A stretch of 16,108 bases of DNA, from IMG/VR virus record IMGVR_UViG_3300010279_000462; one strand, 5' to 3'. A program made the translations under genes and the position numbers. The notes beneath the pieces were generated by a model, which was not told the DNA's origin, did not search any database, and worked only from the letters and a program-made list of their open reading frames with translations. Positions within the stretch are counted from its first letter, which is position 1, and each line of letters starts with the position of its first letter. Positions 920-15,720 of this stretch are shown piece by piece. The DNA is from a virus (taxonomy: Duplodnaviria; Heunggongvirae; Uroviricota; Caudoviricetes).

Positions 920-946
920 TTGAAAACGATGATCTGAAAGTATAAT
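920..946 (+). promoter_or_regulatory. Putative sigma-A promoter for the HEPN-like gene and tRNA-like RNA
   Basis: TTGAAA (920-925) and perfect TATAAT (941-946); the 15-nt spacer is short. Confidence 0.5.
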
Positions 947-951
947 ATTGG

Positions 952-1021
952 GCTGTGAGGAGTGACACCTCACAGCTTTGCCGCTCGAAACTTTGCACAC
1001 CTCTACGTGGTGAGCGGCAGG
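952..1021 (+). promoter_or_regulatory. Two-hairpin 5' leader
   Basis: Perfect 9-bp stem GCTGTGAGG (952-960) / CCTCACAGC (968-976); second stem TGCCGCTC (979-986) / GAGCGGCA (1012-1019), extendable by two G-U pairs. Confidence 0.5.
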
Positions 1022-1084
1022 CAACACAAGAGATTGTGGCTAAGAATGCAGAGAACTTTCATTATAAGAGATGCTGGTGTGAAT

Positions 1085-1861
1085 ATGAATATATTGAAAG
1101 AATTTTCAAACGAACTTGGATATATCAACATCGGCAATCAGTATATTGAATTGTCTGTTCGTTATTATAAACGAGAACATGGAACTGAATCATTAGAACC
1201 AATGGCAAGAGCTATTGGTTTGTCAATCTCGACGTTGCCAGAGGATTATTATGCGCGGGTTGCAAAGGGGTACATTGTAGGTATACAGTCTTGCTTTGAA
1301 AAATACCTGATTGCATTTAAGGAGTTGTGTGGTAACCCTACTGAAAATATTGAACCGTATAATCCCAAAACACAGAAAACTAATAGACTAGAGTGGACAT
1401 TAAAAGCGTGTTACGGTAATCACCTTCCTGACGATGTTAGGGAGTACTATTATATATGTAATTATTATAGGCTTGCAAGAAACCACAGTGTACATAGAGG
1501 TGAACAATCTGCTGAGTATAAGAGTGCGTGGAGTTTAGTGGAGGAAATTGACAAATCTCTTTTGAAATCGGGGATGTGTGACCGTCTCGAAGCACCCAAT
1601 CCAATAGAAAAATTGACATTCGACGATCAGGTGCTGTTTTCAAGAGTTGCGAGATTGCTGGCAGAGAGAATCTACAAAGACAGTAGGTACAACTGGAATA
1701 GAATCTTGACGGTAAACCGTGAGATGCTTGTAGGTGTAGCAGGTACTGTTAGAGATGATACAAGAAAACGAGATATTAAGATTATCAATTTTTTGGCGCA
1801 AACATATCCGGCAAAAGGACAGCATGAGTTGGTTGATTGTTTGCACTCATTTGTGTTATAA
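1085..1861 (+). CDS. HEPN-superfamily-like protein, putative RNase (258 aa from ATG 1085)
   Basis: N-terminal SCFEKYL helix with conserved-type Glu (1298-1300) and R-x4-H motif RNHSVH (1478-1495) in the context YRLARNHSVH. Visibly AT-richer than the downstream genes. GGTG SD-like sequence at 1076-1079. The ORF-track extension to 962 runs through the hairpin leader. Confidence 0.65.
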   Translation: MNILKEFSNELGYINIGNQYIELSVRYYKREHGTESLEPMARAIGLSISTLPEDYYARVAKGYIVGIQSCFEKYLIAFKELCGNPTENIEPYNPKTQKTNRLEWTLKACYGNHLPDDVREYYYICNYYRLARNHSVHRGEQSAEYKSAWSLVEEIDKSLLKSGMCDRLEAPNPIEKLTFDDQVLFSRVARLLAERIYKDSRYNWNRILTVNREMLVGVAGTVRDDTRKRDIKIINFLAQTYPAKGQHELVDCLHSFVL

Positions 1862-1868
1862 TCCATTT

Positions 1869-1978
1869 GGGTTCTAGCTCAATGGTAGAGCATCCCCCTT
1901 CATAAGCACATAGCATAAATAGTGGATGTGTGTTTATGAAGGGGAAGGTTGGAGGTTCGATTCCTCTGGTACCCACCA
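1869..1978 (+). ncRNA. tRNA-like RNA with an elongated anticodon arm (atypical tRNA, tRNA mimic or pseudo-tRNA)
   Basis: Acceptor GGGTTC(T) / GGTACCC, then A and CCA (1976-1978). D arm GCTC-AATGGTA-GAGC (1877-1891). Anticodon stem TCCCC (1893-1897) / GGGGA (1941-1945). Variable loop AGGTT. T arm GGAGG-TTCGATT-CCTCT (1951-1967). The 43 nt between the anticodon-stem strands (7 expected) fold as a further 14-bp helix, 1899-1912 / 1927-1940. Confidence 0.8.
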
Positions 1979-2034
1979 TTTGAAAATATCAAGGCTGAGG
2001 CTCTATAACATAGAACATTCGGAGGTATTATCCT

Positions 2035-2376
2035 ATGCCCAGAACTAAAGGAAGCAAGAATCATGCCAAGACCGACTTCGATGCACAGCTGGCAAAGCTG
2101 CAGAAGGACAAGGCTCTCTTGGAGGAGGGCGTTGCTAAGACAGTCGCCCAGATCGAGGAGCTGAAAACCGATATCAAGTCTATGCGTGAGTCCTTGAAGC
2201 CGCAGAAAGCTGAGATCAAGAAGGTCGAAAAGGAAATCGCCAAGCTGGAAGCAAAGAAATCGGCTGCTGAGGCAAAGGCTGCTGAAGCCGCAAAGAAGGC
2301 AGAAGCGGAAGAGATGTTGAAGAAGCTGCTGGCCAGTGGCATGAGCGCAGATGAAATCCTCGCCAAATTGAAGTAA
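2035..2376 (+). CDS. Lys/Ala/Glu-rich coiled-coil hypothetical protein (113 aa)
   Basis: RBS GGAGGT at 2021-2026; heptad-like helical sequence; basic N-terminus MPRTKGSKN; followed by a terminator. Confidence 0.8.
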   Translation: MPRTKGSKNHAKTDFDAQLAKLQKDKALLEEGVAKTVAQIEELKTDIKSMRESLKPQKAEIKKVEKEIAKLEAKKSAAEAKAAEAAKKAEAEEMLKKLLASGMSADEILAKLK

Positions 2377-2437: not shown

Positions 2438-2457
2438 ATATAGTTTGTGACGGAAAT
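2438..2457 (+). repeat. Direct repeat copy 1, ATATAGTTTGTGACGGAAAT
   Basis: 19/20 identical to 3246-3265. Confidence 0.8.
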
Positions 2458-2474
2458 AGAAGGAGGAATATCCT

Positions 2475-3236
2475 GTGGCTAAGACACACCGCCATGGCCG
2501 CAAGCCAGCCAAGCCAGAATACAGCGCGGAGAAGAATCTGACGAACCAGATGGGCGCTGCCGTTGCCCTCTTCAAGAACGACATGACCTTGCAAGCCATA
2601 GCCGAAGAACTCTCCTTGAACCCCATCAAGGTGCGTAAGCTCCTCATCACAGCCGGTGTCTACCAGTCGGACACTGCCGATGCTGTGCGGCAGACGTTCC
2701 AGTCCTTACGAACAACGCAGGACTATAAGACTGCCGTGTCCTCCACTATGGCCGCCCTGCACCTGTCCCGCCCCTCTGTGACCTCGTACCTCCCATATGA
2801 AAAGGGCGTGTACTTCCCGGAGGATGCGGACGCTGCCAATATCAGCACCGGCGCAGAGAGGCAGCGGCATTACCGGGCTGTCTCCGCTTTGAAGAAGAAC
2901 CCCTGCGAGGAAACACTCTGGAACTGCATCGTTGCCTTCCGGGGGTACCAGTTCAAAACGCTGTCCGGCTTGCCTTTTGCTTACCAGATGAAGAAGGGCA
3001 GGGAAGATGTGTTCACAAAAGAGCTGTGGATCGACAGGCGGGAAAGCAGCAAGAGTCTTGCGTGGAGTTCTATCTTGCTGGCGTACAAGAACATCGGAAC
3101 AATCGGTGCAGTCGTGGACAGACCCAAGGCATTGGGCGACATTCGGGGCGTGTCCTATATCTACGGGATGTTCTACCGCTTCGGCCTGATTGATGTGCCG
3201 GACAAGGTCAAGGAGAAGATGAAGAAGGGAAAGTAA
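2475..3236 (+). CDS. Hypothetical protein with HTH-like segments (253 aa)
   Basis: GTG start with RBS AGGAGG (2461-2466); HTH-like LQAIAEELSLNPIKVRKLLITAG and TMAALHLSRPSVTSYL; C-terminal domain not assigned. Confidence 0.75.
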   Translation: MAKTHRHGRKPAKPEYSAEKNLTNQMGAAVALFKNDMTLQAIAEELSLNPIKVRKLLITAGVYQSDTADAVRQTFQSLRTTQDYKTAVSSTMAALHLSRPSVTSYLPYEKGVYFPEDADAANISTGAERQRHYRAVSALKKNPCEETLWNCIVAFRGYQFKTLSGLPFAYQMKKGREDVFTKELWIDRRESSKSLAWSSILLAYKNIGTIGAVVDRPKALGDIRGVSYIYGMFYRFGLIDVPDKVKEKMKKGK

Positions 3237-3245
3237 CAGTTATTC

Positions 3246-3265
3246 ATATAGTTTGTGACGAAAAT
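3246..3265 (+). repeat. Direct repeat copy 2, ATATAGTTTGTGACGAAAAT
   Basis: 19/20 identical to 2438-2457; begins 9 nt after the stop of the 253-aa gene. Confidence 0.8.
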
Positions 3266-3291
3266 CCGATACGTGATTTAAGTATACAGTG

Positions 3292-3318
3292 TTGCTTCGA
3301 TAGGAAATATGGTATAAT
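3292..3318 (+). promoter_or_regulatory. Putative extended -10 promoter
   Basis: TG-G-TATAAT at 3310-3318; TTGCTT at 3292-3297 (15-nt spacer). Confidence 0.5.
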
Positions 3319-3364
3319 GGGTGCGGCGGTTTTCCGTACTACATGAAAAGGGCAGGTGAATGTG

Positions 3365-3781
3365 ATGTATCACATCATTTGTCAGAATGCACGCTCTTCC
3401 GTTGCCGTAGACCATATTGTCGAAGCAATCAGTCTATTGGAATTGAAAAGAGAAAAGAACAGAATCAACAAACGAATCCAGTCATTGCTACAGATTTCCG
3501 ATGACTTGGAACCTAATTCTGTAGAGTACCAACGTGTATACGAAAGAATTCTTGAACTGTGGAAACAGCGCGAACTTATAAGACGGGTTAGAAAAGTTAA
3601 ATGCGCAAGAATTCATGCGTTATTACACACTCTTTGGGTCAACAGAGTAAAGAATGCCAGCCGCGCATCAGCAGGCTTATCTCTTGACCTAATGAGTGAA
3701 TCGCAGCCCATTCCGCCCATGTTTGAGGCTACTGTGTGTAGTTTTGGACATGGGAGGAACTCCTATGCCCTCTCATGCTGA
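3365..3781 (+). CDS. Hypothetical protein; start uncertain (GTG 3356, GTG 3362 or ATG 3365)
   Basis: Open frame downstream of a promoter, with AGGTG SD-like sequence; helical N-terminal half; overlaps the next gene's start; no family recognised. Confidence 0.5.
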   Translation: MYHIICQNARSSVAVDHIVEAISLLELKREKNRINKRIQSLLQISDDLEPNSVEYQRVYERILELWKQRELIRRVRKVKCARIHALLHTLWVNRVKNASRASAGLSLDLMSESQPIPPMFEATVCSFGHGRNSYALSC

Positions 3782-4563: not shown

Positions 4564-5091
4564 TTATATATCATCCGGGTATTTCTCAATGCCGAGGTAA
4601 TCCTCAATGCTGGTGATCCCTTCGCCGGTGATCTCGCAGATGTCATCGAAGGGGATGACAGTCGCCAGCTCTTTCTCGATACCCACAGTCTTCTGCGTAC
4701 TATCTGGCATGATTTTCAGCTCACAGAAAACTGTGTCGAGCGTAACAACCGTGCCGGACACATCTTCGTACCGTCCTGATGTCTCATTGACATGGAGAAA
4801 ATAACGGACAGTTATCTTCATGCCCTTTTTGACTTGCAGGAGCTTGTCGGAGAGGGTGTTCTTTTCCTCATCTGACAGCTCGATCTTCTTCACCAGCAGC
4901 TTTGTCGCACCCTCGTTGGAGATTTCATCATCGAAACCGCGCAGTGCAGCGAAGGGGCTGAAGATTTTTGCCCGGTTGGTTATCGGCATCCGTGGATGCT
5001 TCCGAGGAGGTTCTGGTCGGGAGGCGTGGAGAATGTCAGAATACTTCTGTGCGACGATTCTGCCTTCTTTGGTATTCTTGCAGTCTGCCAT
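4564..5091 (-). CDS. YolD-like family protein, Y-family polymerase accessory (175 aa)
   Basis: Motif HPRMPITNRAKIFSPFAALRGFDDEI; directly downstream of the Y-family polymerase; strong RBS GAAGGAGG before ATG 5091. Confidence 0.8.
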   Translation of the reverse strand: MADCKNTKEGRIVAQKYSDILHASRPEPPRKHPRMPITNRAKIFSPFAALRGFDDEISNEGATKLLVKKIELSDEEKNTLSDKLLQVKKGMKITVRYFLHVNETSGRYEDVSGTVVTLDTVFCELKIMPDSTQKTVGIEKELATVIPFDDICEITGEGITSIEDYLGIEKYPDDI

Positions 5092-5120: not shown

Positions 5121-6593
5121 TCATTTGGCTTTGTGACCGCCAATCTGACCGTTGCGTTCCCGCATGGTCGCGCCGTCAAGATAGTTCGTGCCTTTCAGAA
5201 CAGCGTTCTTACCGAACTTCTTCTTGATGCCAAGCATGGTTTCTTGAAGGGCTTTCTCCCGTTCCAGCTTGGCAGTGTCGGTGAACAAGTCAACTTGCAG
5301 GATGCCCTGATCCTTGACCACACGATTGGCGGCTATTGTTATTCTCCGCACAGTTAGCTTCTTGTCAGCGATGCGGTCGAATAGTTCCATCGTAGCCGCC
5401 ATGAGCTGACTGCTGAGATTACTGGGGTTGTCGAGCCTTGCACTGCCGTGTGCGCCTTTCGGGACCGTGCGGCCGTAGTGATCAATGTGGACGGGACCGT
5501 GGTAGATGCCCTTATCGCAGTTCTCCCGGTCATACCCGATGTCCAGCGTCAGGCTGTCCGTGACCAGCCCTTTGTCGGTGAGCTGGTAGACCAAGCTGTC
5601 GGTCATCTCTTGCACGATGATCCGAGCCTTGTCATAAGGGTAAGGACAGGCGAGAACCTGACCTTCGGACAGGCTGTTGGTCTCCGGCTTGTAGGTGTTG
5701 ATCTCCTTCATACCGCAGGGTTCCAGCCCCCAAGCATGGTCGATGAGGATTTCTGCGTCCACGCCAAATTCAGAATAAAGCATTTCCTGGTATTGCAGAC
5801 TGGCCCGTGCCAGTTCGCCCATCGTGTGGATACCAAGCCTTTCCAGACGGCGCACGGTACCGGGGCCGGTCTGCCAGAAGTCGGTCATCGGCTTGTGGTC
5901 CCAGAGCTGGTATCGGAAGGATTCTTCATCCAGCTCGGCAATGCGCACACCGTCTTTGTCTGGAGCAGCGTGTTTGGCGGTGATGTCCATGGCGAGCTTG
6001 GCGAGGTAAAGGTTGGTGCCGATCCCGGCGGTGGCGGTGATGCCGGTGGTGTACAGCACCTCCCGAATCATTGTCATGGCAAGGTCGTGCGCGGACATCT
6101 TGTAATGGGAGAGGTAGGCGGTCGCGTCGATGAACACCTCGTCGATGGAATACACCACGATATCCTCTGGGGCAATGTACTTGAGGTAGATGCCGTAGAT
6201 CTGGCGTGACACCTTCTCGTAGTACGCCATCCGGGGCGGTGCAACGAGATAAGACACCTCAAGAGAGGAATCGGCGGCCAGAGCAGTTGCATCGTAGGAC
6301 GGAGCGGATAGACACGCTTTGCTGTCCTTGTACACGGCTGTCCTATTGCGGATTGCATCCCGCAGTCGGCCAGCATTGACTTCCTTGACCTTCTGCACGA
6401 CCTCGAAAAGCCTTGCGCGTCCGGGAATGCCGTAGGCTTTCAGTGAGGGGGAGACTGCGAGGCAGATGGTTTTCTCTGTACGAGAAGCGTCTGCTACGAC
6501 CAGATTGGTGGTCAGCGGATCGAGGTGACGAGCTGCGCACTCTGCGGAAGCGTAATAGGATTTCAAGTCAATGGCTAGGTAGGTGCGCGGCAT
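5121..6593 (-). CDS. Y-family (UmuC/DinB/UvrX-like) DNA polymerase (490 aa)
   Basis: Motifs AIDLKSYYASAE, YSIDEVFID, TAGIGTNLYLAKLA and GIHTMGELA, plus C-terminal IKKKFGKNAVLKG; RBS GGAGGAGG before ATG 6593. Confidence 0.92.
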   Translation of the reverse strand: MPRTYLAIDLKSYYASAECAARHLDPLTTNLVVADASRTEKTICLAVSPSLKAYGIPGRARLFEVVQKVKEVNAGRLRDAIRNRTAVYKDSKACLSAPSYDATALAADSSLEVSYLVAPPRMAYYEKVSRQIYGIYLKYIAPEDIVVYSIDEVFIDATAYLSHYKMSAHDLAMTMIREVLYTTGITATAGIGTNLYLAKLAMDITAKHAAPDKDGVRIAELDEESFRYQLWDHKPMTDFWQTGPGTVRRLERLGIHTMGELARASLQYQEMLYSEFGVDAEILIDHAWGLEPCGMKEINTYKPETNSLSEGQVLACPYPYDKARIIVQEMTDSLVYQLTDKGLVTDSLTLDIGYDRENCDKGIYHGPVHIDHYGRTVPKGAHGSARLDNPSNLSSQLMAATMELFDRIADKKLTVRRITIAANRVVKDQGILQVDLFTDTAKLEREKALQETMLGIKKKFGKNAVLKGTNYLDGATMRERNGQIGGHKAK

Positions 6594-6642
6594 CGTTCTT
6601 TCCTCCTCCTGCACTGTGTGCTTTTATTGCCCTGTGTAATAT

Positions 6643-7902: not shown

Positions 7903-8433
7903 TTAGTGCTTGCTCCGCAGGAAGCGGTTGTCAATGTCAACAGGCAACTGGAGATGCTCGCCTCGGCGAATCAGGCTGTACATCTTGAAGGCGAAGAAAG
8001 GGGCCGGGATGCGCAGCTGCTTGGCAACGCTAAAGAAATCGGTGTTGCCGGAATGAATCAGGTCAAGAACTTCTTCGTCATCCAGAAGCAGGTCGGCGGC
8101 GAAGAAATTTGCTTCACGCTCCAGTCTCCCGGTGGCTTGATAAATGTCAAAATCCTGCATGGCCTGACAGCGGAGGTGATGGGAATGCTCAAAAATATGC
8201 CCCAGCTCGTGACCGGCAATGACGCGCTGTTCCTCATAGGGCAAGTGAGGGTTGACGGCTATGTAACGCACACGGTTCATAATCGTGGCGAAGCCGCGCA
8301 GACCATCCGCATCCAGACTGGTTGCCGGCCACAGTTTTGTATTGGGCAGCGCATCGATCAGCTCAAACGGGTCGCGTGTGCCGTATTGCTGAATCAATCG
8401 CTGTGTATCATCAAAGGTTTGAAGTTGTGTCAT
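7903..8433 (-). CDS. ImmA/IrrE-family metallo-endopeptidase (176 aa)
   Basis: QRVIAGHELGH and EREANFFAADLL motifs; adjacent to an XRE gene. Confidence 0.9.
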   Translation of the reverse strand: MTQLQTFDDTQRLIQQYGTRDPFELIDALPNTKLWPATSLDADGLRGFATIMNRVRYIAVNPHLPYEEQRVIAGHELGHIFEHSHHLRCQAMQDFDIYQATGRLEREANFFAADLLLDDEEVLDLIHSGNTDFFSVAKQLRIPAPFFAFKMYSLIRRGEHLQLPVDIDNRFLRSKH

Positions 8434-8459
8434 TCTTTCACCAACTTTCTGGAAGAGGG

Positions 8460-8888
8460 TCAGGTGTCGTTGCCTTGTCCGTTCTTCCGATACTTCTTCG
8501 GTGTGAACTTCTCCCGTGCCACTTTCTTGGAATCCATAAAGATTCGCTGCATTTCGATGGCAAACGCCGCCTGATCTTCCTCGGACAGAGAGCCGCCAGC
8601 AAACAGTTCTCTCGTCTGGCTGAGGATTTCGTTGGCCTGTGCCTGACCGCGCCGCCCGTAAAGTGCGCCGACCTCAGTCATGAACTCCTCGTTTTCGGTC
8701 ATCAGATAATTGACATCCGTATCGAGCAGTCCGGCCAGTTTTGCGTACATATCACGGGTGCGGGGATAAGTGGTGCCGGCTTCGTAACCTCCAATGGTAC
8801 GACGGGTCACGCCCATTTGCTTTGCTAGTTCCTCCTGAGACCATCCCTTCTGTGTACGGAGGTCTTTTAGCTTTTCCCCGAAGTTCAT
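8460..8888 (-). CDS. XRE-family (ImmR-like) repressor (142 aa)
   Basis: MNFGEKLKDLRTQKGWSQEELAKQMGVTRRTIGGYEAG; RBS GAAAGGAG before ATG 8888. Confidence 0.9.
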   Translation of the reverse strand: MNFGEKLKDLRTQKGWSQEELAKQMGVTRRTIGGYEAGTTYPRTRDMYAKLAGLLDTDVNYLMTENEEFMTEVGALYGRRGQAQANEILSQTRELFAGGSLSEEDQAAFAIEMQRIFMDSKKVAREKFTPKKYRKNGQGNDT

Positions 8889-8942
8889 TGCATTAGCTCC
8901 TTTCCTAAGATGCTGTTTTCCCATACTGGCTCGTGTACCTTA

Positions 8943-9028: not shown

Positions 9029-9122
9029 GTGATAAAATGCCGAATTGGGAAATTTATTTTCTCGATTTCACACAAATGAGAAAACAGCCGTTGTGCTGAA
9101 TAAAATACAAGGAGGCGAGGGT

Positions 9123-11096
9123 ATGGACTGCTTTTCGCGGGATATGGGACCAGTCGTGCGCATGGCGCGGCCAGAGAATCCCAATGAGATAGATGAATTT
9201 ATCAATCCGTTTTGCACGGAGCTGGATGAGATCGGCTCGTTCCAGAGCTACTGCATCGGGCATTTTGAGCAGGAATGGCTGGATGGATTAGGGCAGAAGA
9301 TTGCAGAAGGTCGTGTGCCGCTTACAGAACTGCCAAGAGAAGTGAACCCTGCGGAACTCCGTCACATGGATACCGCGTACATCCAGAGGATGGAGTTTTC
9401 CCGGCTCGACCGGGAGCATTTCTATGCAGATGCAATTGTGCCGGTGGAGATAACGGTTTCGAGCTGTCGAAACGGTACATCTAGTCTGTGGAAGAAGAAA
9501 CAGTGGTATCGCCTTAGAAATCTGTTTGAAGTACAGCCGAATGGATACTCTGTGTCAGAGTGCAGCGTTTCCATCTACCATAAGGAAGAAGCCAATCCGG
9601 GTTTGCCGCTGTCTGAGTACCTGATTCCTGTTCTGGATGAAGCTGGTCTGGAGGAAGAAGCTGACCAGCTGCTGATGCTGTACTACCCGGAGGCGCTGCT
9701 GTCTGAGCCGGTGGATGGCGGTTTGCTTGCGGAACGTATGGGGCTTGAAGTTCGGACTCTCCCTCTGGCAGAGGATAAAATCATGGGCAAGTCCATCTTC
9801 TGTGAGGGAACTCTGGAAGTTCAAACGCAGCACGGAATTGAAAATGTTTCTGTTCATCCGGGAATGATCATTGTCAACAATAATTGCCAGTCCAACAGAA
9901 AACGGTACAATGATGTCCTTATCCATGAGTGCTGCCACCAGTATGAGCATGACCTTTTTGTGTGGGCGCAGACACTTTACAATGAGGATATCGTTGGCAT
10001 TGACTGCCCAATTATTCGTGGACGGTATCCGTCTCAGGGAAAATCCCCAGTCTTTTGGGCGGAGCGTCAGGCGCGGCTCATGACCTACCGGGTCAAGATG
10101 AACAAGAATGTGACAAAGGCGAGAATAGAAGAATTTCTCGAACGTTATCTGAACCAGCATCCAGACTGCTCAAGGGGTGAACAGATAGAAGCGACCGTCA
10201 ATAATCTTGCGTATTTCTTTGGAGTGTCCAAACAGTGCGCCAGAAACCGCATGGTTGAGCTGGGATTTGCAGAAGCAAGGGGTGTGCAGAACTATGTGGA
10301 TGGGAAGTATATCCCACCGTTCAGCTTTGCAAAAGGTGTATTGGAAGGCAAGCAAACCTTCCTTATCGGAGCTAAAGATGCACTGAAACTGTATGCAAGG
10401 GATGAAAAATTCCGGGAGCTGATTGAAAAAGGCTTATACATTTATATTGAGGGTCGCTTCTGTATCAATAGCCCAGAGTATGTGGTGCCAGGAAAGGATG
10501 GAAAGCCACGCCTTACCGAGTATGCGCGGCAGCATACAGAGGTTTGCTGCTTGCGGTTTGACCGGGAAAGCAAAGCGCAGGAAGTAACATATCATTGGGG
10601 TGAGCTGCACCTTGAAACCAAAGGCTCTTACCTTGTAGTAGCAGAGAACAAGAGGGTTTACGCTCCGCAAAATGCAGCTGAACCGGGGCTGTGTGACCCA
10701 TCGGCATTTGCGGCAGAACTGAAATGGTCAGTGGAAATCCGAAAAATGCTTGCCGGGCTGGACTTTGGGGAAGCCTTAAAAACACTGATGGCAGCCCGGG
10801 ATATGTCGGTAGAGAGGATGGAAAGCGAGTCGGGAATCTCTGTTTCCACGCTGAAACGCCTGCGCGCTGGGCAAGAAGCCACAGTGGAGCAGATCGTTGC
10901 AATTGCAGTGGCTTTGCAGCTCCCGCCTACGGTCAGTGGAGATTTGCTGGCAATGTGCGGTATCCGTCTGGATTACAACAGTATGAAGAACACAGCCTAC
11001 CAGCTTATTCTGGCATCGCAATACACGAGCAGCATTGAGCAGGTGAATGCTTTCCTTGAAACCTGCGGCTGCAAAGCACTCAAGACAGCTTGCTGA
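9123..11096 (+). CDS. Multi-domain ImmA/IrrE-like peptidase with C-terminal XRE HTH (657 aa)
   Basis: RBS AAGGAGG before ATG 9123; LIHECCH (HExxH) with downstream AERQA; C-terminal FGEALKTLM..SVERMESESGISVSTLKRLRAG HTH. Confidence 0.8.
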   Translation: MDCFSRDMGPVVRMARPENPNEIDEFINPFCTELDEIGSFQSYCIGHFEQEWLDGLGQKIAEGRVPLTELPREVNPAELRHMDTAYIQRMEFSRLDREHFYADAIVPVEITVSSCRNGTSSLWKKKQWYRLRNLFEVQPNGYSVSECSVSIYHKEEANPGLPLSEYLIPVLDEAGLEEEADQLLMLYYPEALLSEPVDGGLLAERMGLEVRTLPLAEDKIMGKSIFCEGTLEVQTQHGIENVSVHPGMIIVNNNCQSNRKRYNDVLIHECCHQYEHDLFVWAQTLYNEDIVGIDCPIIRGRYPSQGKSPVFWAERQARLMTYRVKMNKNVTKARIEEFLERYLNQHPDCSRGEQIEATVNNLAYFFGVSKQCARNRMVELGFAEARGVQNYVDGKYIPPFSFAKGVLEGKQTFLIGAKDALKLYARDEKFRELIEKGLYIYIEGRFCINSPEYVVPGKDGKPRLTEYARQHTEVCCLRFDRESKAQEVTYHWGELHLETKGSYLVVAENKRVYAPQNAAEPGLCDPSAFAAELKWSVEIRKMLAGLDFGEALKTLMAARDMSVERMESESGISVSTLKRLRAGQEATVEQIVAIAVALQLPPTVSGDLLAMCGIRLDYNSMKNTAYQLILASQYTSSIEQVNAFLETCGCKALKTAC

Positions 11097-13884: not shown

Positions 13885-15108
13885 ATGCCAGAGGTACACG
13901 CGATCCTCTCTGCTTCCAGCTCGAAGCGGTGGCTGAACTGTACGCCATCAGCAAGGCTGGAACAGAACTTCCCCAACGAATCCTCGGTGTATGCCGAGGA
14001 AGGAACAGCCGCCCATGCGCTGGGCGAGTATAAACTGCGCAAGTATCTGCACGAGCGGGTCAGAAGGCCGACATCCGAGTTCGACAATGAGGAGATGGAA
14101 GCCAACACCGATATCTATGCCGAGTTCATCATTACCACTGTGGAGAAGATCAAGGAAACCTGTCCGCATCCGCTGGTCATGGTGGAGGAACGGCTGGATT
14201 ACAGCTATCTGGTCCCGCAGGGCTTCGGCACAGGCGACTGCGTGGTCATTGCAGACGGCACTCTTTACGTCATGGACTACAAGAACGGCAAAGGTGTGTT
14301 CGTCAGCTGTGACCATAACCCACAGATGATGCTGTACGCCTTGGGCGCATACCACGCCTATGGCTACCTGTACAGCATTACGAAGGTGTCTATGACCATC
14401 ATCCAGCCGAGGTTGGAGAACATCTCCACCTTCGAGTGCAGCGTGGATGAGCTATTGGACTGGGCTGAGAACTATGTCCGCCCCAGAGCCAAGCTCGCCT
14501 TTGAAGGCAAGGGTGAGCAGGTTCCCGGTGACTGGTGCCGATTCTGTCGCGCCAGGACATGTTGTAAGGCCTGCGCCGCAGAAGCAATGGATCTGGTCAA
14601 GACGGAGTTCCTTGATCTGGATTCTGGGGTGCTGACGGATGAAACCGAGGAGACAGATGCGACCGCATCCTACGACCCGGACACCACAGCACCGACCTTC
14701 AAGTCTCCATCGCTGCTGACCAAAACAGAGATCGAGCAGATGCTTCCCACGCTGAACCGCATCGAATCTTGGATTGAAGCCATCTTCGCCTATGTCAGCT
14801 CCGAGGCCATCAACCACGGAGTCTGCTGGGACGGCTATAAGGTGGTGGAGGGCAGAAGTAAGCGGCAGTTCCTTGACCCGAAGGCGGTGGCAAGTGCGGC
14901 AACACAGGCCGGCTATACCGATATCTACAAGACCGAGATGATCTCTCTGACTGAGTTTGAAAAGCTCATGGGCAAGAAGAAGTTCCAGGAGATTTTGGGT
15001 GAGTATGTGGTAAAACCGCCAGGCAAGCTGGCGCTTGTCCCGGACTCCGACCCCAGACCGGCAGTTGACCTTGACACTGCCGAAGACGAATTCACACCCC
15101 TTGAATAA
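13885..15108 (+). CDS. DUF2800-family PD-(D/E)XK (Cas4-like) nuclease (407 aa)
   Basis: HAILSASSSKRWLNC, GFGTGDC..MDYKNGKG and WCRFC motifs; RBS GGAGGTG. Confidence 0.88.
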   Translation: MPEVHAILSASSSKRWLNCTPSARLEQNFPNESSVYAEEGTAAHALGEYKLRKYLHERVRRPTSEFDNEEMEANTDIYAEFIITTVEKIKETCPHPLVMVEERLDYSYLVPQGFGTGDCVVIADGTLYVMDYKNGKGVFVSCDHNPQMMLYALGAYHAYGYLYSITKVSMTIIQPRLENISTFECSVDELLDWAENYVRPRAKLAFEGKGEQVPGDWCRFCRARTCCKACAAEAMDLVKTEFLDLDSGVLTDETEETDATASYDPDTTAPTFKSPSLLTKTEIEQMLPTLNRIESWIEAIFAYVSSEAINHGVCWDGYKVVEGRSKRQFLDPKAVASAATQAGYTDIYKTEMISLTEFEKLMGKKKFQEILGEYVVKPPGKLALVPDSDPRPAVDLDTAEDEFTPLE

Positions 15109-15126
15109 ATGGAGGTAAACACAGTT

Positions 15127-15720
15127 ATGGCAAATACCAAGAAAATTTCCAGCGCGACCAAGGTGGTCATCCCTTGCCGCATTTCCTTCGCCAACATTTT
15201 TGAACCCAAGAGCATCAACGGCAGTGAAGCAAAGTATTCCGTTTCCTGCCTGATCCCCAAGGCGGACAAGAAGACTCTGCTGGCGATCCACAAGGCTATC
15301 GAAGCCGCCAAGGAGGACGGCAAGACCCGCCGTTGGGGCGGTAAGCTGCCTCCCAACCTCAAGCTGCCCCTGCGTGATGGCGACATCGACCGCCCGGACG
15401 ATGAGAACTACACCGACTGCTTCTTCCTGAACGCAACCAGCAAGGATGCCCCGCAGGTGGTTGACCGCCATGTGCAGCCTGTGACCGACCCCATGATGGT
15501 CTACTCCGGCTGCTACTGTAATGTCAGCGTCAACTTCTACGCCTTCAACGCCAACGGCAACCGTGGTGTTGCGGCGGGCCTGGGCAATGTCCAGTTCGTC
15601 AAGGATGGCGACCGTCTGTCCGGCAAGTCTTCTGCGGACGCAGATTTCGATGCGCTGGAGGACGATAACGAAGTCCTCGGCGGCGACTCCGGCGAGGAGC
15701 TGCCCGATTACCTGCGCTGA
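15127..15720 (+). CDS. DUF2815-family (T7 gp2.5-like) single-stranded DNA-binding protein (197 aa)
   Basis: ISFANIFEP, KYSVSCLIPK, LKLPLRDGD, YSGCY, NRGVAAGLGNVQ motifs and acidic tail; RBS GGAGG before ATG 15127. Confidence 0.9.
   Translation: MANTKKISSATKVVIPCRISFANIFEPKSINGSEAKYSVSCLIPKADKKTLLAIHKAIEAAKEDGKTRRWGGKLPPNLKLPLRDGDIDRPDDENYTDCFFLNATSKDAPQVVDRHVQPVTDPMMVYSGCYCNVSVNFYAFNANGNRGVAAGLGNVQFVKDGDRLSGKSSADADFDALEDDNEVLGGDSGEELPDYLR

What the first reader, a model, noticed from the sequence alone, without database searches (positions are those of the whole stretch)
1085..1978. HEPN-like RNase gene coupled to a tRNA-mimic RNA: candidate RNA-antitoxin or anti-phage system
Seen: a 258-aa gene with a HEPN-type R-x4-H motif (RNHSVH) stops at 1861, and a tRNA-fold RNA starts 7 nt later on the same strand with no terminator between them, so they should share one transcript. 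Both lie in an AT-rich segment, and no protein antitoxin gene (e.g. MNT) is adjacent. Established: several HEPN proteins are tRNA-cleaving nucleases (PrrC, RloC, HepT), and AbiF-type HEPN toxins are held in check by a linked ncRNA. Inference: the tRNA-like RNA, whose anticodon loop is replaced by duplex, could be a non-cleavable substrate mimic that neutralises the RNase until infection or stress. It could instead be a dedicated substrate or sensor. I know of no described system with exactly this layout.
Basis: partly seen in the sequence, partly recalled or inferred. Interest (0 to 1): 0.9.

Follow-up and report, generated by a model that had tools for sequence, protein, structure and literature searches.

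The report
HEPN-like gene fused to tRNA-shaped RNA
A gene for a probable RNA-cutting (HEPN-fold) protein is joined end-to-end to a tRNA-shaped RNA that cannot decode, a pairing kept across at least three bacterial phyla and absent from the catalogues and papers I searched, so it is probably a new RNA-controlled toxin or anti-phage module, but no function has been tested.

Summary
ORF 1085-1861 gives a confident all-helical model. Its best structural matches are almost all HEPN domains, and R132, N133 and H137 are invariant down to about 20% identity.

The RNA at 1869-1978 has tRNA acceptor, D and T arms, but an 18-bp helix replaces the anticodon loop. A model built from it finds one copy directly after the gene in nearly every relative with enough flank, including unannotated copies on Acaryochloris and Bernardetia plasmids. 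On 57 RNAs, 95.5% of cells pair and 28 of 33 pairs covary.

New points:
- In 32 of 57 loci the gene's stop codon lies inside the tRNA-like RNA.
- In this window's clade a strong promoter-like site in the last codons points at the RNA's first base.
- Homology to a relative in another genomic context runs from 980 to 1987.

The RNA-antitoxin mechanism is plausible but untested (about 0.4). A cis-acting processing role is the main rival. I found no description in print; the nearest is AbiF/RCd22. Earlier reports of this scan describe what appears to be the same kind of module on other DNA.

The parts
952..976 (+). 12-bp hairpin just upstream of the ribozyme cleavage site. L010 has a hairpin with the same outer bases and a different inner stem. 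It may be a leader or insulator hairpin; its role is unknown.
   Evidence: Inverted repeat I4; compared by eye with L010 3890-3902.
980..1053 (+). HDV-like self-cleaving ribozyme (Rfam RF02682, F. prausnitzii type). The predicted cut is immediately 5' of G980 and would leave a 5'-OH on the downstream mRNA.
   Evidence: cmscan gives 79.6 bits against a gathering score of 44, E 1.1e-13, full length. The same family lies upstream of the homologous ORF in L001-L004, L010-L012 and L014. It is absent from the distant relatives.
1085..1861 (+). 258-aa HEPN-fold protein, a putative RNase. The start MNIL is shared by relatives. The ATG at 1046 lies inside the ribozyme and is probably not used.
   Evidence: Translation. 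AF2 model pLDDT 87.9. The top VIA-align hits are HEPN domains, Z 6-8. AFDB cluster hits include RiboL-PSP-HEPN and Apea-like HEPN. There is no Pfam, PADLOC, PHROG or NCBIfam hit. 426 representative clusters match at E<=1e-3.
1478..1495 (+). Codons for R132-N-H-S-V-H137, the HEPN R-N-x3-H motif.
   Evidence: R132, N133 and H137 are invariant in A1 (24 sequences) and in A4 (24 sequences at 19-38% identity).
1619..1645 (+). Codons for F179-DDQVLFS-R187, a second conserved motif (consensus FDDF(I/V)LFSR in distant relatives). Its role is unknown.
   Evidence: Invariant in A1. D181 is invariant and F179 and D180 nearly so in A4. F179 is named in the predicted dimer interface.
1833..1862 (+). Sigma-70-type promoter-like site inside the ORF's last codons: TTGATT, an 18-nt spacer ending in TGt, then TATAAT. 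The stop codon lies within the -10 hexamer. It would start transcription at about G1869.
   Evidence: Consensus scan, 10 of 12 plus TG. TTGAnn-18-TGnTATAAT is kept in L001, L012 and L014 although the last codon changes between Leu, Ile and Val. Sites this good and this well placed occur in 7 of 57 loci, against 2 of 1140 control positions.
1869..1978 (+). tRNA-shaped non-decoding RNA with a 7-bp acceptor stem (one defect), D arm, T arm with a TTCGATT loop, discriminator A and an encoded CCA (1976-1978). The anticodon arm is replaced by a long helix.
   Evidence: Rfam tRNA model, 44 bits. My own model R1, 99.5 bits. Covariation counted on 57 members. ARAGORN is negative.
1894..1946 (+). Extended arm of about 18 bp with a 16-nt variable loop. 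The proximal part (5' CCCC-U-Y-C-A, 3' U-G-A-A-G-G-G-G) is almost invariant across the family. The distal part covaries freely.
   Evidence: I1: 1895-1910 / 1929-1944.
1979..1987 (+). Last bases shared with the L010 cassette. Beyond 1987 the contexts differ, and here prophage-like genes begin at 2035.
   Evidence: blastn: window 980-1987 matches L010 3903-4898 at 80.8% identity, with unrelated flanks.

Best explanation
This is a two-part RNA-protein module. It consists of a HEPN-fold protein that is probably a metal-independent RNase acting as a dimer, and a dedicated tRNA-shaped RNA encoded at the very end of its gene.

The RNA keeps the tRNA elbow, acceptor stem and (here) the CCA end. It should therefore be matured and stabilised like a tRNA. 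Its anticodon loop is replaced by a helix whose base-proximal 8-12 bp are sequence-conserved.

I think the most likely working is that of a type III-like toxin-antitoxin or abortive-infection pair. The RNA is made from an embedded promoter and/or cut from the mRNA by RNase P. It binds the protein through the conserved helix and holds the nuclease inactive. Infection or stress then lowers the RNA or displaces it, and the nuclease cuts cellular RNA, possibly tRNA.

In this window's clade an HDV-like ribozyme additionally trims the 5' end of the message.

Shown here: the parts, their strict linkage, the fold, the conserved motif, the RNA structure, and the mobile, sporadic distribution. Inferred: nuclease activity, toxicity, RNA-protein binding and the trigger.
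For: 1. HEPN fold. The AF2 model has pLDDT 87.9. Most of the top 16 VIA-align hits are HEPN domains: HepT-type toxins 5yep_B (Z 8.1) and 7ae2_A, a Cas13 HEPN domain, Csm6 and HepS. LsoA and the AbiA HEPN domain follow at ranks 25-26. AFDB clusters named RiboL-PSP-HEPN and Apea-like HEPN match at probability 1.0. The atlas gives the same lead.

2. Conserved motif. R132, N133 and H137 are invariant in close and distant relatives.

3. Predicted homodimer. ipSAE is 0.65, best of 3 controls 0.00. That mark was reached by 20 of 30 solved homo-pairs and 1 of 23 single chains. The runs share at least 65% of contacts and partner pLDDT is at least 84.

4. Strict linkage. The RNA lies within -16 to +20 nt of the stop codon in 56 of 57 loci. 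It was found in 45 of 53 distant metagenome loci, plus 3 cut by contig ends, and in the Clostridia loci. Each of 5 genomes has one gene and one high-scoring RNA. It is also present, unannotated, on Acaryochloris pREB4 and a Bernardetia plasmid.

5. RNA structure. 95.5% of cells pair and 28 of 33 pairs change on both sides. 0 of 500 shuffles reach this, and slid controls pair at 36-51%.

6. The arm is conserved at sequence level while the proteins fall to 20% identity. A bare RNase P signal would not need this.

7. No gene downstream of the RNA is conserved across the family, and the upstream genes sampled differ from locus to locus.

8. Accessory context. Neighbours include GmrSD, a HerA-like ATPase, a STAND-like ATPase, ImmA/HTH genes, integrases and conjugative-element genes. 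The gene was found in 0 of 400 other genomes sampled from the same order.

9. An embedded promoter could supply excess RNA.

10. Precedent. AbiF(Cd), a HEPN toxin, is neutralised by direct binding of its ncRNA RCd22 (PMC12373285). RiboL-PSP-HEPN is described as distantly related to AbiF/AbiD (PMC3710099).
Against: - No experiment shows toxicity, nuclease activity or binding.
- The structural Z scores (6-8) lie in the range that helical bundles can reach by chance (note). No sequence profile of any HEPN family matches.
- The predicted dimer interface (residues 12-69 and 179) does not name the R-N-x3-H residues. A composite active site is therefore not shown.
- A tRNA-like RNA is expected to be stable, whereas classical antitoxins are labile.
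- The RNA follows the toxin gene, rather than preceding it as in ToxIN or AbiF.
- With the stop codon inside the RNA in 32 loci, a purely cis-acting role is just as natural.
- One relative, on Methylobacterium pMRAD03, has no such RNA.
- No member was found in IMG/VR or GenBank phages. PADLOC models do not match.
Confidence: 0.4

Rival explanations
1. The tRNA-like RNA is a cis-acting punctuation element rather than a trans-acting antitoxin. RNase P cuts at its 5' end. That leaves the mRNA with a 3' tail of only 4-13 nt, or in most of the family with no stop codon at all. The amount of full-length protein is then set by the race between translation and processing. Non-stop messages would go to tmRNA tagging. 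The ribozyme does the matching job at the 5' end.
For: - The stop codon lies inside the RNA (at U8-A9-G10, or at TAA/TAG in the D arm) in 32 of 57 loci, and 4-16 nt upstream in 24.
- The acceptor stem, T arm, discriminator and frequent CCA, which are RNase P determinants, are conserved.
- In the window's clade the ribozyme sits 22-31 nt before the start codon (354 nt in L001).
- As a weak hint only: RNA-library contigs cover 988-1428 and 1545-1857, and none covers the RNA.
Against: - A processing signal does not need an 18-bp arm with an invariant sequence. An ordinary tRNA or a minihelix would do.
- In this clade the stop codon is outside the RNA, and a promoter-like site could make the RNA separately.
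- Contigs cannot show RNA ends.
- This reading is not exclusive of the antitoxin one.
Confidence: 0.25
2. The RNA is a working part of the effector rather than its inhibitor. It could be a sensor or decoy that reports on the cell's tRNA pool or on phage tRNA-directed enzymes. It could also be a cofactor or substrate that the HEPN protein processes into an active ribonucleoprotein.
For: - The linkage and conservation are the same as for the main reading.
- The RNA keeps every feature recognised by tRNA-handling enzymes, namely the elbow, T loop, acceptor stem and CCA, while hiding the anticodon.
- HEPN proteins that act on or with specific RNAs are known: Cas13, Las1, and HepS among the structural matches.
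Against: No evidence favours activation over inhibition. No conserved single-stranded target site is evident, because the terminal loop varies in length and sequence.
Confidence: 0.15
3. The ribozyme and the tRNA-like RNA mark the two ends of an RNA copy of the cassette, which moves through an RNA intermediate. The 5' end would be defined by self-cleavage and the 3' end by a tRNA-like tag, as in some eukaryotic retroelements and the Mauriceville plasmid.
For: Homology between the window and L010 starts at ribozyme position 1 (980) and ends 9 nt after the CCA (1987), with unrelated flanks. The cassette is AT-rich against its surroundings.
Against: - The gene is single-copy per genome.
- There is no reverse transcriptase in the cassette, and none is consistently nearby.
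- There are no flanking direct repeats.
- The ribozyme is absent from most of the family.
- The boundaries may simply be the limits of the functional unit. Integrases next to the RNA suggest DNA-level exchange at a tRNA-like attachment site.
Confidence: 0.05
4. It is a real decoding tRNA, for example an opal suppressor with anticodon UCA, that carries a short intron, or a decayed tRNA or attachment-site remnant that happens to lie there.
For: The Rfam tRNA model matches. The triplet UCA sits where an anticodon would be in the window. Real tRNA genes and integrases occur near some members.
Against: - The bases at the 'anticodon' place are paired, vary between members (UCA, CCA, UGA and others), and covary with the opposite strand.
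- ARAGORN finds no tRNA.
- The insert is far too short for the group I self-splicing introns I know from bacterial tRNA genes (my own knowledge).
- A remnant would not be kept, with compensatory changes, next to one gene family across phyla.
Confidence: 0.02

Closest known systems
AbiF(Cd)/RCd22 of Clostridioides difficile phi027 prophage (Abi_2/AbiD/F HEPN toxin with abiF-motif ncRNA; PMC12373285)
   Same: Both have a single HEPN-family protein and a structured non-coding RNA encoded in cis on the same strand, with no protein antitoxin. Both sit in a prophage or mobile context in Clostridia. In AbiF the RNA neutralises the toxin by direct binding. The window protein's nearest named structural relatives (RiboL-PSP-HEPN) are described as distant kin of AbiF/AbiD (PMC3710099).
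   Different: - No Abi_2 Pfam match and no abiF RNA motif in the Rfam scan.
- The RNA here is tRNA-shaped and lies at the 3' end of the gene, often containing its stop codon. RCd22 lies upstream and is not tRNA-like.
- Neutralisation is untested here.
Type III toxin-antitoxin systems (ToxIN, AbiQ/antiQ, CptIN, TenpIN)
   Same: Both pair a protein endoribonuclease with an RNA partner encoded beside it. Both are accessory, mobile and linked to phage defence.
   Different: - Those toxins have the ToxN/AbiQ fold, not HEPN.
- Their antitoxin is an upstream array of tandem repeats, processed by the toxin and separated from it by a terminator.
- Here there are no tandem repeats, and a single downstream RNA with a tRNA fold.
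HEPN anticodon nucleases and HEPN toxins (PrrC, RloC, HepS, HepT-MntA)
   Same: A HEPN fold with an R-x4-6-H motif. HepT-type toxins and HepS are among the best structural matches. tRNA is a known target of the anticodon nucleases (my own knowledge).
   Different: - No ABC-ATPase domain, unlike PrrC and RloC.
- No adjacent MNT nucleotidyltransferase, unlike HepT.
- None of those systems has a dedicated tRNA-shaped RNA gene.
tRNA punctuation and tRNA-like 3' elements (mitochondrial mRNA-tRNA junctions, MALAT1 mascRNA, bacterial mRNA-tRNA co-transcripts such as secG-leuU; recalled from my own knowledge)
   Same: A tRNA-shaped structure directly after a coding region, which RNase P would cut. That cut defines the mRNA's 3' end and releases a small stable RNA.
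   Different: Here the tRNA-like RNA is non-decoding, has a conserved extra helix, is tied to one protein family, and in most members contains the stop codon.
HDV-like ribozyme of Faecalibacterium prausnitzii (drz-Fpra-1, Rfam RF02682; reviewed in PMC6765202)
   Same: The element at 980-1053 is a full-length member of this family. glmM-like genes lie next to the module in L001, L005 and L014.
   Different: The published ribozyme is discussed as a possible regulator of glmM. Here, and in L001-L004, L010-L012 and L014, it heads the HEPN cassette instead. L001 has one copy before glmM and a second before the cassette.

Membership tests
HEPN superfamily | Four-helix up-and-down bundle core | tested here: met
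   AF2 model pLDDT 87.9. Most of the top 16 VIA-align hits are HEPN domains, Z 6.1-8.1, rmsd 3.4-4.7 over 109-140 residues. AFDB clusters named RiboL-PSP-HEPN and Apea-like HEPN match with TM 0.48-0.51. Caveat: Z values in this range can arise for helical bundles by chance.
HEPN superfamily | Conserved R-x4-6-H motif, often R-N-x3-H | tested here: met
   R132, N133 and H137 are invariant in A1 and A4.
HEPN superfamily | Dimer that brings two motifs together; RNase activity | tested here: inconclusive
   A homodimer is predicted: ipSAE 0.65, best of 3 controls 0.00; mark reached by 20 of 30 solved homo-pairs and 1 of 23 single chains; runs share at least 65% of contacts; pLDDT at least 84. The named interface (residues 12-69 and 179) does not include 132-137. 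Activity cannot be tested with these tools.
Abi_2 / AbiD/F with abiF-motif RNA | Abi_2 domain (Pfam) in the protein | tested here: not met
   No Pfam family at E<=0.01 for P0001. Abi_2 was not among the families matched by any of the 24 members at E<=5.
Abi_2 / AbiD/F with abiF-motif RNA | abiF RNA motif upstream of the gene | tested here: not met
   The Rfam 15 scan of the whole window at E<=1 gives only the HDV-like ribozyme, tRNA and a chance miRNA hit.
Type III toxin-antitoxin (ToxIN-like) | Tandem-repeat RNA antitoxin upstream of the toxin gene, with a terminator between | tested here: not met
   No tandem repeats in 700-2500. The RNA is single and downstream. No terminator-like site lies between them.
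Type III toxin-antitoxin (ToxIN-like) | RNA binds and inhibits the endoribonuclease toxin | not testable with these tools
   Needs expression, pull-down and EMSA. The complex tool takes no RNA.
Canonical tRNA | Acceptor, D and T arms with elbow-forming GG and TTCGA loops | tested here: met
   Rfam tRNA model 44 bits. Helices 1, 2 and 4 pair at 99-100% with covariation.
Canonical tRNA | 5-bp anticodon stem with a 7-nt loop and a conserved anticodon | tested here: not met
   An 18-bp helix with a variable loop replaces it. ARAGORN is negative in the window and in relatives.
HDV-like ribozymes (RF02682) | Nested double-pseudoknot consensus, scored by the covariance model | tested here: met
   79.6 bits against a gathering score of 44, model positions 1-74 of 74. 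Self-cleavage itself is not testable here.
HepT-MntA (HEPN-MNT) toxin-antitoxin | Adjacent minimal nucleotidyltransferase antitoxin | tested here: not met
   The neighbours are a zinc-ribbon ORF on the minus strand and a coiled-coil ORF. No NTase family was found.
PrrC / RloC anticodon nucleases | N-terminal ABC-type ATPase domain fused to the nuclease domain | tested here: not met
   The protein has 258 aa with no ATPase family match.

The most novel reading that the evidence does not exclude
The gene and the RNA are mutually exclusive products of one transcript, and together they form a built-in dead-man switch. In healthy cells RNase P frees the stable tRNA-shaped RNA. In most of the family that cut also strips the message of its stop codon, so the few proteins made are ssrA-tagged and destroyed, or are captured by the RNA. 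When infection disturbs tRNA processing, trans-translation or the tRNA pool, for example through phage tRNA nucleases or host shut-off, intact messages are translated and free HEPN nuclease accumulates. The module would then guard the integrity of the cell's tRNA-handling machinery. That would be a sensing principle I have not seen described for bacterial immunity.
Probability: 0.12. Interest if true: 0.88.

Novelty: new variant of a known kind. Interest (0 to 1): 0.78.

Why it matters
If the RNA controls the nuclease, this is a new class of RNA-antitoxin or defence module. Its RNA is built on a tRNA scaffold and it spans at least Bacillota, Cyanobacteriota and Bacteroidota. Both partners are unnamed in current annotation: the gene is called a hypothetical protein and the RNA is not annotated at all.

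It would also add a widespread, strongly covarying RNA family to the catalogue. It gives a rare bacterial case of a coding region that ends inside a tRNA-like gene. And it gives the long-known F. prausnitzii HDV-like ribozyme a second, testable context besides glmM.

The module is about 1 kb, has only two parts, and exists on plasmids of cultured strains. Ordinary bench tests should be able to settle the mechanism.

Tried and rejected
- **Sequence profiles.** Pfam, PADLOC, PHROGs and NCBIfam gave nothing for the protein. A PDB sequence-profile search gave only a chance sigma-factor hit. Foldseek against the PDB gave nothing below E 0.8.
- **Own genome.** No whole genome is held for this window.
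- **Phage collections.** No relative in IMG/VR with three different alignments or in GenBank phages. P0001 itself has no match in PLSDB.
- **Anticodon mimicry.** I considered that UUCAUAA mimics a Met anticodon loop paired to an AUG, and that L028's UUGAAAA mimics Phe. I dropped this because distant members carry other sequences at that place.
- **Third component.** I looked for a conserved third gene downstream. Only local synteny was found.
- **Second RNA copy.** A second R1 hit in G004 is a plain hairpin without a tRNA body.
- **Cassette borders.** No flanking direct repeats and no tandem repeats.
- **Sequencing runs.** Only assembled contigs were available. They show that relatives of the ORF occur in an RNA library, and that no contig spans the RNA. 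They cannot show RNA ends, strand or level. The joints at 1026/2035 and 1052/2341 rest on single contigs from other organisms and were not interpreted further.
- **Literature.** Searches for a tRNA-like antitoxin or HEPN-linked tRNA mimic found nothing relevant.
Full report
**What is in the window**

ORF 1085-1861 (+) encodes 258 aa, with RNHSVH at residues 132-137. Seven bases after its TAA, at G1869, a tRNA-like RNA begins.

Rfam's tRNA model scores it at 44 bits, with 39 nt inserted where the anticodon loop should be. ARAGORN calls no tRNA. The stretch folds far better than shuffles do, z = -5.6. The segment 1001-2000 is AT-rich, GC 0.38-0.41 against 0.50-0.58 around it.

- A full-length HDV-like ribozyme of the F. 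prausnitzii type lies at 980-1053 (79.6 bits, gathering score 44). It ends 31 nt before the start codon.
- A strong sigma-70-like site lies at 1833-1862: TTGATT, an 18-nt spacer ending in TGt, then TATAAT. The stop codon sits inside the -10 hexamer. The site is placed to start transcription at about G1869.

To the right of 2035 lie prophage-like genes. They include a coiled-coil ORF, an HTH ORF, a UmuC-like gene, an ImmA/HTH repressor pair, DUF2800 and an Enc34-type SSB.

**The protein**

No Pfam, PADLOC, PHROG or NCBIfam model matches.

An AlphaFold2 model built on 24 relatives is confident (pLDDT 87.9, pTM 0.85) and all-helical. Foldseek against the PDB found nothing. An exhaustive VIA-align search put HEPN domains in most of the top 16 places. 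These include the HepT-type toxins 5yep_B (Z 8.1) and 7ae2_A, 2hsb, a Cas13 HEPN domain, sacsin, Csm6 and HepS, with LsoA and the AbiA HEPN domain lower down. AFDB clusters named RiboL-PSP-HEPN and Apea-like HEPN match at TM about 0.5. The protein atlas gives the same lead.

The Z values alone are not decisive for a helical bundle. The consistency of the hits, together with an invariant motif, makes the HEPN assignment reasonable.

R132, N133 and H137 are invariant among close relatives. They are also invariant among 24 representatives at 19-38% identity, as are G12, Y128 and D181.

The family has 426 representative clusters at E<=1e-3 in 1.84 billion proteins. None that I saw carries a name. 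RiboL-PSP-HEPN is described as distantly related to AbiF/AbiD (PMC3710099).

A homodimer is predicted: ipSAE 0.65, best of 3 controls 0.00. That mark was reached by 20 of 30 solved homo-pairs and 1 of 23 single chains. The runs share at least 65% of contacts and pLDDT is at least 84. The named interface is the conserved N-terminal helices, not the motif.

**The RNA and its linkage to the gene**

Rfam's tRNA model found a 100-110-nt tRNA hit just after the homologous ORF in nearly every locus fetched. These came from contigs encoding database relatives and from 15 Clostridia MAGs among GTDB species representatives.

I built covariance model R1 from 19 of these RNAs. R1 found the RNA directly after the gene in 45 of 53 distant relatives from peat, soil, sediment, marine and wastewater metagenomes. 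Three more hits were cut by contig ends and one was weak. The remaining four loci stop at or near the gene's end.

On 57 RNAs, plus one spurious reverse-strand row, the counts are as follows.
- 95.5% of cells form standard pairs. Shuffled controls give 74.8% and slid controls 36-51%.
- 28 of 33 pairs change on both sides.
- 0 of 500 shuffles reach any of the measures.
- All four helices covary.

The acceptor, D and T arms behave like those of a tRNA. The fourth helix is an 18-bp arm. Its base-proximal part (5' CCCC-U-Y-C-A, 3' U-G-A-A-G-G-G-G) is nearly invariant. It includes a C.A mismatch in 33 of 58 rows. Its distal part and loop vary freely.

Each of five genomes holds one gene and one high-scoring RNA. 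All the other R1 hits I could judge are ordinary tRNAs, apart from one plain hairpin and reverse-strand echoes of the true hits.

No gene downstream of the RNA is conserved across the family.

Relatives with the RNA also sit, unannotated, on plasmid pREB4 of Acaryochloris marina and on a Bernardetia plasmid. In both the gene is annotated as a hypothetical protein. A more distant relative on Methylobacterium pMRAD03 has a C-terminal extension and no such RNA.

**The junction**

I took the longest open frame running into each RNA. Its stop codon lies 4-16 nt upstream of the RNA in 24 loci, including the window and all the Clostridia MAG loci. In 32 loci the stop lies inside the RNA, and one locus is an outlier. 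The stops inside the RNA fall as follows.

| First base of the stop (offset from the RNA's first base) | Codon | Loci |
|---|---|---|
| +6 | TAA | 1 |
| +7 | TAG (U8-A9-G10) | 7 |
| +12 | TAA or TAG, D arm | 18 |
| +18 | TAG or TAA, D arm | 5 |
| +20 | TAG | 1 |

Two consequences follow. A ribosome finishing the gene must unfold the RNA. And an RNase P cut at the RNA's 5' end would leave the message with almost no 3' tail or with no stop codon. This is the strongest new structural fact, and it supports a cis-acting rival to the antitoxin idea.

**Features of this window's clade**

The ribozyme precedes the gene in the window, L001-L004, L010-L012 and L014. It does not precede it in L005 or L013, nor in the 20 distant loci scanned.

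TTGAnn-18-TGnTATAAT is kept in the window, L001, L012 and L014, although the last codon changes between Leu, Ile and Val. This points to selection on the nucleotides. L010 carries a weaker version.

Promoter-like sites this good and this well placed occur in 7 of 57 loci, against 2 of 1140 control positions. They fall in this clade and one other.

Homology between the window and L010 (80.8% identity) runs from 980 to 1987, that is, from ribozyme position 1 to 9 nt past the CCA. The flanks are unrelated. The roughly 1-kb cassette therefore moves as a unit.

Tyrosine integrases lie shortly after the RNA in L027 and L028, and prophage-like genes follow it here. The RNA may thus serve as an attachment site, as tRNA genes do. 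No copy of its 3' half occurs elsewhere in the window.

**Context and distribution**

Neighbours include GmrSD, a HerA-like ATPase, an AAA_35/TPR ATPase, ImmA/HTH genes, a conjugative-element protein, AAA_15/21 ATPases, a reverse transcriptase and polysaccharide or glmM-like genes.

The gene was found in none of 400 other genomes sampled from the order of one carrier. No member turned up in viral collections. This is the pattern of an accessory, horizontally moved module.

**Expression**

Only assembled contigs were available. In one metatranscriptome library, contigs about 97% identical to the window cover 988-1428 and 1545-1857, and none covers the RNA. This cannot show RNA ends and is at most a weak hint.

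The ribozyme stretch has a summed depth 5 to 40 times that of its flanks, with many contigs that run on into unlike sequence. So the ribozyme is a multi-context element in these communities.

**Interpretation**

The parts and their linkage are shown. The function is inferred.

I rate an RNA-controlled HEPN nuclease, a type III-like toxin-antitoxin or abortive-infection module, as most likely, at about 0.4. Three things support it: the precedent of AbiF(Cd)/RCd22 (PMC12373285), the sequence-conserved arm that a bare processing signal would not need, and the accessory context.

A cis-acting punctuation role (0.25) and an RNA that acts as sensor, decoy or cofactor (0.15) are live rivals. They are not mutually exclusive with the main reading. 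A retro-mobile cassette (0.05) and a decoding tRNA with an intron (0.02) are unlikely.

**Novelty**

I found no paper describing a tRNA-shaped partner of a HEPN protein. Rfam 15 has no dedicated family for the RNA.

Earlier reports of this scan describe what appears to be the same kind of module on other DNA (e1-4216687, e1-1952145, e1-1952144, e1-1777730, e1-1626903). They also describe a variant with the RNA in front of the gene (e1-4647659, e1-344362). These are unchecked AI notes. My own tests agree with what they saw.

One later check named in those notes priced the antitoxin claim at 20 in 100, which is lower than my figure. New from this window are the ribozyme-headed cassette, the embedded promoter, the cassette boundaries and the count of stop-codon positions.

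Noticed in passing
window 944-1065; L001 1966-2034 and 3569-3646: The HDV-like ribozyme is a multi-context element. L001 has one copy before a glmM-like gene and another before the HEPN cassette. In metagenome contigs the ribozyme stretch has 5-40 times the summed depth of its flanks, and many contigs diverge right after it. It may serve as a general 5' insulator for accessory genes in Faecalibacterium-like genomes, not only for glmM.
   Followed up: partly
L027 4553-5764 (-), L028 3945-5162 (-), L006 from 8635 (-); window 2035 onward: Tyrosine integrases or prophage-like genes lie shortly downstream of the tRNA-like RNA. This suggests that integrative elements use it as an attachment site, as they use real tRNA genes. 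No repeat of its 3' half lies within the window.
   Followed up: partly
window 2035-2376 (+); L012 1017-1343: A 113-aa coiled-coil protein starting MPRTKGSKN follows the RNA in the window and in L012 (53% identity). L001 has the same start 56 nt after its RNA. The gene is absent after the L010 cassette. No family matches.
   Followed up: partly
L015 3534-4784, L017 2234-3484, L020 3893-5158, L021 3909-5159: A roughly 416-aa ORF with no Pfam hit (the two tested against NCBIfam also have none) starts 20-37 nt after the RNA in one Acutalibacteraceae-type clade. Whether it is a clade-specific third component or a passenger is not known.
   Followed up: partly
alignment A7, columns 45/110: Most distant members keep a C.A mismatch in the conserved arm. 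Their 5' strand therefore reads CCUCC, like the anti-Shine-Dalgarno core, and it would pair better with a GGAGG ribosome-binding site than with its own partner GAAGG. This may be a switch or may be a coincidence.
   Followed up: no
L086 (Methylobacterium radiotolerans pMRAD03) 2453-3400: A 28%-identical relative has a C-terminal extension of about 40 residues in place of the tRNA-like RNA. The pairing is therefore not universal in the wider family.
   Followed up: partly
L010 about 4700-4775 (and L011): The ORF of the closest cassette relative is frameshifted by one T in a T-run near its 3' end, within the stretch that matches the promoter-like site. The ribozyme and the RNA are intact. This may be a decaying gene or an assembly error.
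   Followed up: no
window 5121-6614 (-), 7903-8924 (-), 9045-11096 (+), 13885-15720 (+): Prophage-like genes: a UmuC/ImpB-type polymerase, an ImmA-HTH repressor pair, a 683-aa phrog_4031 protein with a C-terminal HTH, a DUF2800 nuclease and an Enc34-type SSB. Earlier notes of the scan call the rest of this record a temperate gut phage.
   Followed up: no
window 1565-1580 and 1917-1932; 993-1008 and 1492-1507: A 16-nt stretch of the ORF resembles the loop and 3' strand of the RNA's arm (88% identity). A 16-nt stretch of the ribozyme is 81% complementary to the codons just after the HEPN motif. Both are probably chance.
   Followed up: no
L053 3354-3523 (-): A group II intron domain (RF02001, 118.9 bits) lies about 1.9 kb downstream of one distant module.
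   Followed up: no
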